DNA of 64,000 nt from NCBI GenBank assembly GCA_030141605.1, contig JAQGDQ010000377.1:162974-226973 (forward strand), read 5' to 3'. Under the pieces are notes generated by a model that was not told the origin of the DNA, made no database searches, and saw only the letters and a program-made list of their open reading frames with translations. A program made the position numbers and the translations under genes. Source of the stretch: Tubiluchus corallicola. Taxonomy: Eukaryota > Animalia > Priapulida. Below are positions 15,669-37,300 of the stretch, in pieces. The first letter of the stretch is position 1, and each line of letters begins with the position of its first letter.

Positions 15669-16314
15669 ATGGACAATGAAAGTATGGAGGTCTTGCTGAT
15701 GTTATTTTTACTGATTTGCTGTTCTTTCCAAGCCGATCAATGGATGATGCAAGAATGCGATCAAGAGTCTGCCAAAAAGATTTTACCATGCGCTTTCCCT
15801 GTGAAATTGGATTCTCGACATAGAATTGATTTTATTAAGAGGACTCGTTGCGATTTTATCTTTTGCACTTGGCACACAAAACAGGAGGCAGCTGATTGGT
15901 CTGCAAGGGTCAAATTCAAAGTGTATTCTATAAATATAACGGAATATGTTGCTAGCGAGTTACCGGAAAATGAGTTTCTAGCTGGGATTAATGTTGAAAA
16001 ATTAATACTAGATAAGACAGGGGTGACGCATTTGAGAGAAGCATTTGTTTACGATAAATTTAACAGCATAAAGCATGTAAACATACACAGAAACAACATA
16101 CAGACTATACACGCTAAAGCGTTTAGTGGACTTTCAGCTCTTCAAACACTTATATTGCTTGGTAATCAAGACTTGCTTTCGGCAGATTTTGACCTGTCCA
16201 TATCAAAATCCTTCAGGGTATTTTCGCTTCACGACAGTCCAATAATACAACGGATTAAAGAACCATCGCTACACAGAGCCATAGATCCTGGGGATGTTTC
16301 GTTCATTCTGACAG
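15669..16314 (+). CDS. First coding exon: signal peptide + Cys-containing cap + ~5 degenerate LRRs (module 1)
   Basis: [22 protein letters not shown] leader (alternative ATG 15684); [42 protein letters not shown]; ends ACAG|gtaagc. Confidence 0.85.
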
Positions 16315-34300: not shown

Positions 34301-37300
34301 CGAATAAAACAATTTTAAAAAAATAAATTATATAAAAAATGTAATTAAATGTGCTAACTATTGTAGCCTAAAGAATACACGATTAAAACAGAAAGAAATT
34401 AAAATTCATTTGCAAGACGAAGAGGGAGATTGCTAAAAAACTAGTATGCTGAGTGAATCATGTTTAGATAAATAAAAATACACAATACATATACAAAAAG
34501 AATAGAGAACGACCATTTTCGTTTTGTTTTTCTATTGTTAGTCATTTAGAACGGTTTAATAACATTCAAGAAAACAGAAAAAAAAATAAATGTCTCCTAA
34601 ATTGGTAAGGGAAGCCAGAGATGTTTTCTTGAAGGCACACCAGTGACGGCAGACTATTGGGTAGAAATGTCACTGAAATATTCATTTTGTCTTTTGCTTC
34701 CTGCCTACACATGTGCTGTTATTAATATGTTCAAATCCATTACTGGCAATGCAGTTTTACTTTGTTTAACGTCTGTTTGGAAAACAAAGAACATTCGTCC
34801 TTTCAGAGGAATAAAAATATTATTATTTTAATTATAAAGTAATATGAATAAAAATGTTACATAATTAAATACGTTAAACTATTATAGCCTAAACAATACA
34901 TTCAGACAAAATGTATTTTTGTTGTTCTTTCAGGTTTCTAACTATATTTTTACATTTTTTTTGGAATAATATCTGGTAAACTAGAACTGTGCTGTTAATG
35001 AATCTGGGAAACGTAAAAGCGGGGGGTTGCATGAAATGTAGGGTAATGTCGGACAGTTTTGCAGTGTAATGTCACACATGATTAACAGCAGTCGAACAAC
35101 TTTGTGGTTATGGCAATTAAATTCTTTTAAACATTTTGCAGTATGCGAGATTGACCAGTGGCAACACGAGAGAAATTTTATTGATTGCACATGTAAGCTA
35201 GGAAAATACCTTTTTGCTCAACATTGTTATTTCCTTGTATCCGCCAAAAACAAAACAGCATAATAAACTTGAATATGGTAATCACATGCGGATGCAAGTA
35301 TGCAAATCTCTAATCCTGAAATCACCATCCGGCTCTGAGTACCACAGTTCTACAAGTTTCCACAACATAAGCAATGCAGAAGGTTCCACAACACAAAAAT
35401 GTAGAGGTCACAAGCAACATGGAATTGTGTCAGTAAAAATAATTCAAAAGTAATGAACGCCAGCAAAAAAAAAACACCACATTAGAAAATTAGAAATTTT
35501 ACATTGTCAGTGTCACTTAAACTCAGATCTTTTGCTTTCCAGGAAGCTATGCTATTTATGTAAGTCAGATTATTTTGCTGTTACAAAGTTTTTTGAGTAT
35601 GATATCTTATATGTTATGACTTATTGACATTTTAGATATTAACGAATGTGATTCAAATCCTTGTCAACATGGTTCATGCAATAATCTTGTGAACAAATAC
35701 ACATGTACTTGTGATTTCGGCTGGACAGGAACAAACTGCGATAAAAGCGATAAAGGTGAAAACTGCAATCAAGAGTCTGCCAAAAAGATTTTACCATGCT
35801 TTTTCCCTCATAAACCTCCAAATCCTCATCGTAATGATACTTGGACTAATTGCGATTTTATCTTTTGCTCATGGCGCACAAAACAGGAGGCAGCTGATTG
35901 GTCTGCAAGGGTCAAATTCAAAGTGTATTCTATGACTATAAAGGAATATGCTGCTAGAGAGTTACCGGGAAATGAGTTTCTAGCTGGGATTAATGTTGTT
36001 AAATTATCTCTAGAATCGACACTAGTGGAACATTTGAGAGAAGCATTTGTTTATGACAAATTTAGACGCATAAAGCATGTAAAAATATTTAACAACGGCA
36101 GGTTACAGAATATACACTCTAAAGCATTTAGTAAACTTTCTGCTTTTCATACACTTGAGATTAAAAGCAATCCAAAATTGCTTTCGGTAAATTTTGACCT
36201 GTCCATCTCAAAATCCTTCCAATTATTTTCGCTCGTCGACAGTCCAAAAATACAACGGATTAATAAACCAGCACTATACAGAGACATAGATCCTGGGGAT
36301 GTTTCGTTCATTCTGAGAGGTAAGCATTGATCGTGAAATACAGGAAAAAACCTTCATTTACATGAAGCTAAAATTACCTTGAAATGTTGTGTCACCTACA
36401 TACTGCGTAACTCATAGAAATTACGTTTGCAGCATTTGCATCTGTCAAAAACTTGAAACTCCAACAAAGTGGCGTTTTCGGAGCTAAAAAACAATAGTAA
36501 TAGATCAGGAAGACAATAACGCGTATGTGGGCTGCATAAACGGGTACATTGAAATCAATATAAAAATTTTTTATCTATTCCCCACCCCCTCCAATCCGGA
36601 TGCTACGTAATTTTTTATTTTATATCTCCAGCAACAGTGTCCCGACGGCGCCATTACATGACGTCACCACGTAAACGTAAATCAGGGAAAGAAAAGGAAA
36701 TTATGGTAAATTAGGTCCCAAAAAACTTTGCACACAAAATTATAGTACTTATTTCGCTTACCTACTGGAAAGACTTGTGTAACTAGAAAAGACAATTATT
36801 AGTTATTTAAAATTATTTCACCAATTGGTAAAATGTCGATAACTCAACCTCCAGGTGGTGCCAATCACAGCCAAAAATGTATTTTCAAACTTTTTGATAC
36901 GTAACAGTAATTTAAAATTTTACTTTGTTAGCAACATGTGTGCCACGAATGCTCTGATTATTTTTTTCAAACTTTAATCAATGTTATCTAAACTTGTTTC
37001 AAATGACCTACCATCAAAATGGCTGCGCTTAAATTTACACGTTTTATGCAGCGTTACAGCAGATGCAAGTTCTGCATGCAAATGGTAATATGTAAGTGGT
37101 ATAAAATTTCCAGATGAATTTTTCAAGTTTCATATAAGTGGAGGGTTCTCTTTTGCTTTAAAGCAAGTTTATATAAAGTTGTAAAACTGCATGTGAAGAA
37201 TTGTGAAAAAGCACAAAGCATACGGAAGTCTAAATTATCTAATATTGTTAGTAAGATTTATGAGTGTGCCCAAACGTCAGCAACAAAACTAGGCACATGA

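What the first reader, a model, noticed from the sequence alone, without database searches (positions are those of the whole stretch)
15756..36319. Two LRR modules look diversified on the ligand-binding (concave) face
Manual alignment of module 1 (15756-16314) with module 2 (35764-36319) gives about 55 substitutions plus 3 gap positions over ~187 aa. The adjoining intron (16315-17811 vs 36320-37750) is colinear and looks less diverged by eye. Long coding stretches ([37 protein letters not shown]) are identical even at silent sites. Changes cluster at the x positions of xxLxLxx strands: [70 protein letters not shown]. They also cluster in an N-cap loop ([26 protein letters not shown]), often as multi-base codon swaps (gct>ttt, gtg>cat, ggg>cta, acg>gaa). 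Known: this pattern is seen in lamprey VLRs and plant LRR receptors under diversifying selection. Inference: an immune, allorecognition or gamete-recognition receptor with two specificities.
Basis: partly seen in the sequence, partly recalled or inferred. Interest (0 to 1): 0.9.

Follow-up and report, generated by a model that had tools for sequence, protein, structure and literature searches.

The report
Fast-changing binding face in LRR-EGF receptor
An animal gene carries two copies of a leucine-rich-repeat head among a long run of EGF exons; the two heads differ 2.5 times more than the intron beside them, mostly at residues predicted to line the binding groove, which likely reflects selection for new recognition targets, a pattern already known from other immune receptors.

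Summary
Observation confirmed. The two LRR modules differ at 55 of 184 aligned residues. Exon divergence is 17.9% against 7.1% in the colinear intron, while silent sites (6/82) and EGF exon pairs match intron rates. Changes concentrate on concave x positions (17/29 vs 15/70 convex) and an N-cap loop (10/17). 28 codons differ at 2-3 bases, against at most 11 in any equal intron window. Whole-exon dN/dS is only 1.12, and the site test needs the intron as clock: LRT 25.7 with it, 0.56 with free multi-base mutation. The gene reads signal peptide-LRR-LRRCT-7 EGF-LRR-LRRCT-13 or more EGF and runs off the window. Public contigs show at least four strand variants, so these are two members of a small multicopy family, with one hint of segment exchange. 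Module 2 was fused 10 nt past an EGF splice donor that is still intact, so it may be spliced out: 'two specificities in one receptor' is unproven. Only one full-module homolog was found (30% identity, unnamed). No expression data, ligand or taxon. Best reading: a lineage-restricted surface or secreted recognition protein under diversifying selection, like sea-urchin TLRs; not a VLR, TLR or Slit by what could be tested.

The parts
15669..16314 (+). Exon 1: ATG, hydrophobic signal-peptide-like stretch, then LRR module 1 (from C at 15756): Cys N-cap, five LRRs, connecting strand; phase-1 donor GTAAGC
   Evidence: Pfam LRR_8 E 2.8e-10; the signal peptide is inferred from hydrophobicity
15792..15848 (+). 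Variable N-cap loop (codons 13-31) between Cys12 and Cys32; 10 of 17 aligned residues changed, 6-nt indel
   Evidence: a third variant in public contigs has further residues here
16315..19625 (+). Intron 1; 16315-17811 is colinear with 36320-37750 (7.1% diverged); 17812-19435 has no counterpart in copy 2
19626..19784 (+). LRRCT-like exon 1 (GNSLICDC...C...C) with a Thr/Ser tail, phase 1-1
   Evidence: no Pfam hit; identity inferred from the motif and from the matching C-cap of homolog P0097
21286..33990 (+). EGF exons between the modules: six with intact AG/GT (22717, 26711, 27471, 30751, 31978, 32627) and three damaged (21286 no AG, 30319 half exon, 33869 stop)
35636..36319 (+). Fusion exon: calcium-binding-type EGF read through in frame into LRR module 2 (from 35764); no signal peptide
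   Evidence: junction carried by an exact 238-nt contig in run X2 (35657-35894)
35753..35766 (+). Retained EGF splice donor (35755|GT); the module 2 sequence joins 10 nt into the former intron. Sister EGF exons 46134-46244 and 47461-47571 end at the same donor motif
36592..37137 (.). High-copy repeat inside the shared intron (summed contig depth 10^5-10^6, vs about 2-3 x 10^3 on the exon in X1)
37912..38079 (+). LRRCT-like exon 2; 20/144 nt and 13/48 aa different from LRRCT exon 1
41025..62098 (+). Thirteen further intact phase 1-1 EGF exons, plus one without acceptor (44942), expanded by tandem duplication; a further broken one lies at about 62817; the gene runs off the window with no terminal exon seen

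Best explanation
The two LRR exons are members of a small multicopy family of short LRR heads whose predicted concave face has likely been driven apart by repeated, positively selected amino-acid replacements, as expected for a surface or secreted protein that likely recognises changing foreign molecules. Shown: the signal-LRR-LRRCT-EGF exon layout, excess exon divergence, its concentration at strand x positions and the N-cap loop, neutral-rate silent sites, and extra family variants. Predicted: the solenoid fold and which residues face the groove. Inferred: the EGF run is a stalk whose length could vary by exon skipping; copies likely exchange segments; module 2 adds a second head only when the retained EGF donor is read through. 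The ligand is most likely microbial or parasitic (innate immunity), but that rests on analogy alone.
For: Exon 17.9% vs intron 7.1%. Two independent neutral clocks agree with the intron: silent sites in unchanged codons 6/82 = 7.3%, and the M2a neutral distance of 0.074-0.08 per site. M2a vs M1a LRT 39.9 (28.8 without the loop); 7 of 9 high-posterior sites outside the loop are strand x positions. With multi-base mutation allowed and the neutral rate fixed at the intron value: LRT 25.7, about 27% of codons at omega about 8. Silent sites inside the strands are not old: 1/23 differ, and 1/19 next to multi-base codons, which argues against old unconverted tracts. Internal control: among 24 EGF exon pairs with alignable flanks, exon and flank divergence were mostly similar; three pairs were clearly higher, two of them with only one alignable flank. 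Both frames are open after 99 changes (no-stop chance 0.026 if random) and both indels are in frame. Other copies add new residues at the same sites, e.g. LRR1 x5 N/T/I; four LRR2 strand types occur in one sample.
Against: Whole-exon dN/dS 1.12, CI 0.76-1.83. With multi-base mutation rates and branch length free, the site test vanishes (LRT 0.56); such mutations are known to mimic selection (10.1101/165969, abstract). A model with two codon ages and omega at most 1 fits as well as M2a (lnL -1068.6 vs -1069.1). The framework shows no detectable purifying selection: convex 15/70 changed vs 11.1 expected neutrally, core 6/27 vs 4.2, and the LRRCT exon has 13/48 residues changed with 2 silent codons. 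Only two full sequences were available. The direct model of module 1 was poor (pLDDT 47.7), so the face assignment rests on the LRR register and a 30%-identical homolog. Nothing here identifies the ligand.
Confidence: 0.65

Rival explanations
1. Module 2 is a stranded partial copy of another family member and is spliced out at the retained EGF donor; the protein has one LRR head, and the divergence arose between separate genes. This is compatible with selection on the family, but not with two specificities in one protein.
For: The donor at 35755 is intact and has the same motif as the donors ending two sister EGF exons. Module 2's LRR2 strand is nearly the same as the most abundant contig class in X1 (depth 1212; 14 differences from module 1, differing from module 2 at codon 89). 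An in-frame fusion has a 1-in-3 chance anyway. The array holds 5 damaged EGF exons.
Against: The copied unit starts at the first Cys and its similarity ends just after the LRRCT exon; the fusion is in frame; module 2 has its own N-cap loop and LRR3-5 sequence without a stop; its own donor is a strong GTAAGC.
Confidence: 0.3
2. The multi-base swaps come from very short gene-conversion or template-switch patches donated by more diverged family members, or from targeted mutation, with selection only filtering them.
For: 28 multi-base codons; adjacent differences cross codon borders nearly as often (8) as they fall inside codons (11, 10). One site conflicts with the LRR2 grouping: K106 is shared only by modules 1 and 2 (depth 279.6+257.6 = the 537.2 not carrying G; 5 other contigs read G). 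The two-age model fits equally well. Conversion among LRR paralogues is reported for mosquito APL1 (PMC9222773, abstract).
Against: Buried codons between the variable ones are identical even at silent sites (1/23 differ), so patches would have to be about one codon long. The conflict rests on one transition site and on depth arithmetic. No donor cassette array is seen in the window.
Confidence: 0.2
3. The head serves self/non-self or gamete recognition, or adhesion, rather than pathogen recognition; selection is real but the partner is a host protein.
For: Fold neighbours include adhesion and guidance proteins (Slit2, LRRTM2, chondroadherin). EGF arrays occur in gamete-coat and recognition proteins (recalled, not from a call).
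Against: Module 1's LRR2 strand (75 nt, exact) and the third variant are found in both samples laid, which gives no sign of allelic hypervariability there; but whether the two samples are different individuals is unknown.
Confidence: 0.2
4. Neutral decay or relaxed constraint plus clustered mutation; no selection.
For: Overall omega about 1; framework omega about 1; the intron has more adjacent differences than chance (18 vs 7.2); the free multi-base model removes the LRT.
Against: It needs an exon rate 2.3 times the intron's (0.174 vs 0.075) made of multi-base events that the intron does not show. It does not explain the repeat-register pattern (p 0.00019), nor why EGF exons are not accelerated.
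Confidence: 0.05

Closest known systems
Sea-urchin TLR multigene families (PMC3367398, passages read)
   Same: Germline multicopy LRR ectodomains in an invertebrate, with positively selected residues mainly on the concave beta-strands.
   Different: Those are mostly single-exon genes with many more LRRs (the paper numbers them to 21), a transmembrane segment and a TIR domain; here there are five LRRs, a separate LRRCT exon and 20 or more EGF exons, and no TIR or TM is seen in the window.
Lamprey/hagfish variable lymphocyte receptors (PMC3900441, passages read)
   Same: Similar size and fold (homolog model vs VLRA Z 16.7, VLRC Z 16.6); variable concave sheet; VLRC has an N-cap loop pointing to the concave side.
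   Different: VLR diversity is assembled somatically from cassettes into an incomplete gene; here each head is a complete germline exon. The VLRC N-cap loop has low variability, whereas this loop is among the most variable parts. VLRs have no EGF array (recalled).
Slit proteins (architecture as described in PMC10199209, passages read)
   Same: Capped LRR modules plus EGF repeats in an extracellular protein; the homolog model matches Slit2 D2 (Z 17.2).
   Different: Slit has four consecutive LRR modules, 9 EGFs, a laminin-G domain and a cystine knot; here single modules are separated by 7 EGFs, the array is expanding and decaying, and the heads are diverging fast.
Anopheles APL1 LRR immune proteins (PMC9222773, abstract read)
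   Same: Small paralogous LRR family with high non-synonymous diversity and exchange among paralogues.
   Different: APL1 is a secreted LRR protein with a coiled-coil tail (recalled) and no EGF array; conversion here is only hinted by one site.
P0097, unnamed 281-aa protein from a public assembly
   Same: The only hit spanning most of the module (30% identity over 133-162 aa): signal, LRRs, LRRCT.
   Different: No EGFs; ends in a hydrophobic helix (membrane or GPI-type anchor, inferred); no name, no taxon, single member.

Membership tests
Extracellular capped LRR solenoid (LRRNT-LRR-LRRCT) | LxxLxLxxN repeats with Cys caps forming a curved parallel sheet | tested here: met
   Pfam LRR_8, register, models and fold matches
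Variable lymphocyte receptor (VLR) | Incomplete germline gene filled somatically from flanking LRR cassettes | tested here: not met
   Both heads are complete open exons; no cassette array in 64 kb
Variable lymphocyte receptor (VLR) | Variable residues on the concave sheet | tested here: met
Variable lymphocyte receptor (VLR) | Sequence orthology to agnathan VLRs | tested here: inconclusive
   Only generic LRR stretches of 35-100 residues match
Toll-like receptor | Transmembrane helix and TIR domain after the LRRCT | tested here: not met
   Each LRRCT exon is followed by EGF exons, not TM/TIR; the far C-terminus is outside the window
Slit | Four tandem LRR modules, then EGFs, laminin-G and cystine knot | tested here: not met
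   One module, 7 EGFs, one module, 13 or more EGFs; laminin-G and knot cannot be tested beyond 64000
Immune or allorecognition receptor (functional class) | Expression in immune or contact tissue, ligand binding, allelic polymorphism | not testable with these tools
   No RNA holder listed; two samples of unknown relationship

The most novel reading that the evidence does not exclude
An undescribed invertebrate diversified-receptor system: roughly 5-10 germline loci of VLR-sized LRR heads that swap strands by segmental conversion, change their groove at about ten times the neutral rate or more, and are displayed singly or in tandem on EGF stalks of alternatively spliced length, with a splice-donor switch that adds or drops the second head.
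Probability: 0.2. Interest if true: 0.8.

Novelty: new variant of a known kind. Interest (0 to 1): 0.5.

Why it matters
Selection on the concave face of LRR receptors is known, but this family appears lineage-restricted (one distant homolog found) and joins a VLR-sized head to a long, turning-over EGF array. The colinear intron gives an unusually clean built-in neutral clock. If expressed in immune or contact tissue, it would be a new candidate for how an invertebrate builds a recognition repertoire without somatic rearrangement. It also shows how a second binding domain can enter a gene by read-through of an old splice donor.

Tried and rejected
No whole genome is held for this window, so the C-terminus, the other loci and the taxon could not be read. 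Homolog searches: near length, 0 of 69 candidates; longer proteins, 2 generic LRR hits of 614; profile search, 369 hits, 150 listed, and only P0097 covered most of the module in one stretch; alignment with P0097, 1 of 4548, P0097 itself; metagenome contigs, 0 of 380 pattern hits confirmed and 0 exact DNA matches; Atlas gave only generic LRR clusters. No RNA holder listed; this is no evidence either way. The direct model of module 1 was low confidence and its fold search had no match at E 0.001 or better. Old unconverted tracts as the cause were rejected by the silent sites inside strands. An idea that EGF exons are accelerated too was not borne out. The 601-nt X4 contig piece listed with 0 differences was first read as module 2; one search suggests that it is a fold-back of the third variant, so I do not count it. 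Site 36074 was first misread as codon 105 and corrected to K106. Module 2's L89 was not seen in any laid contig; allele, assembly error or filter cannot be told apart. Literature: searches found no paper describing this LRR-EGF family; the library lacks most subscription papers. No supplements were read. No tRNA gene in the window. No earlier scan notes for this genome or sequence.

Full report
Observation. Module 1 lies in an exon that starts at ATG 15669 with a hydrophobic, signal-peptide-like stretch and ends at 16314|GT; module 2 lies in an exon from 35636 to 36319|GT. They differ at 55 of 184 aligned residues, with 3 gap columns. At DNA level the exons differ at 99 of 552 aligned bases (17.9%) and the colinear intron at 101 of 1420 (7.1%) (Fisher p 1e-11). 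Part of that intron is a high-copy repeat, but both parts are slow: 5.9% unique, 8.8% repeat.

Where the changes fall. Using the standard LxxLxLxxNxL register, 17 of 29 concave x positions changed, against 15 of 70 convex/linker positions (p 7e-4) and 15 of 49 polar convex positions (p 0.019); the N-cap loop changed at 10 of 17 and the rest of the N-cap at 3 of 36. By repeat position, x5 changed in 4 of 5 repeats, x7 in 5 of 5, x8 in 3 of 5, x10 in 4 of 5 and the N9 slot in 0 of 5; a permutation test gave p 0.00019. One convex position (16) also changed in 4 of 5, by single bases. The direct model of module 1 was poor (pLDDT 47.7). The face assignment is thus predicted, not observed.

Is it selection? 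Whole-exon dN/dS is 1.12 (bootstrap 0.76-1.83), so the simple test is silent. My pairwise site models gave M2a over M1a with LRT 39.9 (28.8 without the loop) and a neutral distance of 0.074-0.08 per site, equal to the intron's although not fitted to it. Silent sites in unchanged codons outside the loop differ at 6 of 82 (7.3%). Three results cut the other way. A model with two codon ages and omega at most 1 fits as well. Allowing free multi-base mutation removes the LRT (0.56), a known artefact (10.1101/165969, abstract read). And the framework shows no detectable purifying selection (convex 15 of 70 changed vs 11.1 expected neutrally; LRRCT exon 13 of 48 residues). I tested the first two. Old tracts predict diverged silent sites beside the variable codons, but only 1 of 23 silent sites inside the strands and 1 of 19 next to multi-base codons differ. 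Neutral multi-base mutation would need an exon rate of 0.174 against 0.075 in the intron; no 552-nt intron window has more than 11 multi-base triplets (2 triple) against 28 (10 triple) in the exon, and with the neutral rate fixed at the intron value the LRT is 25.7, with about 27% of codons at omega about 8. The EGF exons of the same gene serve as a control: in 24 pairs with alignable flanks, exon and flank divergence were mostly similar, with three pairs clearly higher, two of which had only one alignable flank; pairs of unequal exon length were left out. Both LRR frames stay open (chance 0.026 for 99 random changes). Repeated, selected replacement at single codons is the best fit; patches about one codon long cannot be excluded.

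The gene. All coding exons found after the first are phase 1-1 on the + strand: LRRCT-like exon 19626-19784, six intact EGF exons, the EGF-LRR fusion exon, LRRCT-like exon 37912-38079, then 13 intact EGF exons to 62098; five more EGF exons are damaged. No terminal exon, transmembrane segment or TIR domain is in the window, and no genome is held. Module 2 joins 10 nt after the donor at which two sister EGF exons (46134, 47461) end, and that donor is intact. The junction is real DNA: an exact 238-nt contig spans it in run X2. So module 2 is coding only when that donor is read through; otherwise it is intron. This is the main gap in the 'two specificities' reading.

The family. Contigs of public runs show more than two copies. 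Over the LRR2 strand, run X1 holds four types among the 8 of 10 laid records shown: module 1 exact, a near copy with 2 differences, a third variant with 8, and an abundant module-2-like class with 14 (depths 258, 119, 195, 1212). Over LRR3-5 there are contigs with 0, 17 and 38 differences from module 2, where module 1 has 37-46. The third variant brings new residues at already variable sites (LRR1 x5 is N, T or I; loop codons 20 and 24 each have three states), read from a table that showed 40 of 368 rows. Summed depth suggests roughly 5-10 loci, but the tool warns that depth is no copy number. One site (K106) is shared by modules 1 and 2 alone, while LRR2 groups them apart, a hint of exchange between copies or of recurrent mutation. 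Module 1's LRR2 strand and the third variant occur in both samples laid; whether these are different individuals is unknown. Outside this organism only P0097 (unnamed, 281 aa, 30% identity, ending in a hydrophobic helix) matched most of the module; other searches were empty or generic.

How it most likely works. Shown: layout, divergence pattern, extra copies. Predicted: a short solenoid whose sheet and N-cap loop form a binding groove. Inferred: the protein is exported, the EGF run holds the head away from a surface or links several heads, and selection keeps remodelling the groove to track changing ligands. I favour innate immune recognition by analogy with sea-urchin TLRs, where selected residues lie mainly on the concave strands (PMC3367398, passages read); a host partner (allorecognition, gametes, adhesion) remains open. 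No RNA holder was listed, so expression is untested.

Comparison and verdict. It works like VLRs and sea-urchin TLRs in where it varies, but it fails the membership tests that could be run: there are complete germline exons rather than cassettes (VLR features from PMC3900441, passages read), EGF exons rather than TM-TIR after the LRRCT, and not the four-module Slit layout (PMC10199209, passages read). Conversion among LRR paralogues is reported for mosquito APL1 (PMC9222773, abstract read). Five literature searches found no description of this family, within a library that lacks most subscription papers; some searches were seen as listings. Two earlier scan notes report the same concave pattern in NLR exons of other animals (unchecked), which suggests that the pattern is common. 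Verdict: a real and strong signal of a known kind, on a new architecture; interest 0.5.

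Noticed in passing
window 1827-6583: Exons of a trypsin-like protease gene (Pfam Trypsin E 3e-9 and 4.7e-8) with a GDSGGP motif and a hydrophobic tail; the likely middle exons near 2524 and 5086 carry stops in the expected frame, so it looks broken.
   Followed up: partly
window 949-1805 vs 29863-30721: A 96% identical 860-nt copy of LRR-EGF gene intron with its half EGF exon sits 20 nt upstream of a trypsin exon; short matching stretches flank it. 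Either a templated insertion or a sign that the two genes are related (an LRR-EGF-protease layout is not excluded).
   Followed up: partly
window 22717-62098: None of the intact EGF exon donors has G at +5, whereas the LRR and LRRCT donors do; possibly linked to frequent EGF exon skipping.
   Followed up: no
window 46134-46244, 47461-47571, 41025-41138, 50323-50436: Some EGF paralog pairs have multi-base codon swaps clustered in the central hairpin (4 and 5 codons), although EGF exons overall are not accelerated.
   Followed up: partly
window 54912-55025 and 58414-58527: Two EGF exons are identical at all 111 compared bases with flanks 2.8% apart: a very recent duplication or conversion.
   Followed up: no
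window 11592-14492: 2.9-kb satellite of 13-nt units just upstream of the gene, giving long spurious ORFs on the - strand.
   Followed up: no
window 7765-8074, 23632-24102, 29100-29565, 42690-43159, 45154-45608, 60360-60833: A roughly 470-nt element with inverted ends, six copies (one partial) in both orientations at 84-93% identity; MITE-like.
   Followed up: no
window 62255-62410 and 5254-5528: Two inverted copies (80%) of a repeat with a tRNA-like head, probably a SINE; ARAGORN called no tRNA.
   Followed up: no
P0097 (unnamed public assembly): A stand-alone 281-aa signal-LRR-LRRCT protein with a C-terminal hydrophobic helix, VLR-like in size, with no Pfam hit and no relative found among 4548 candidates.
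   Followed up: partly
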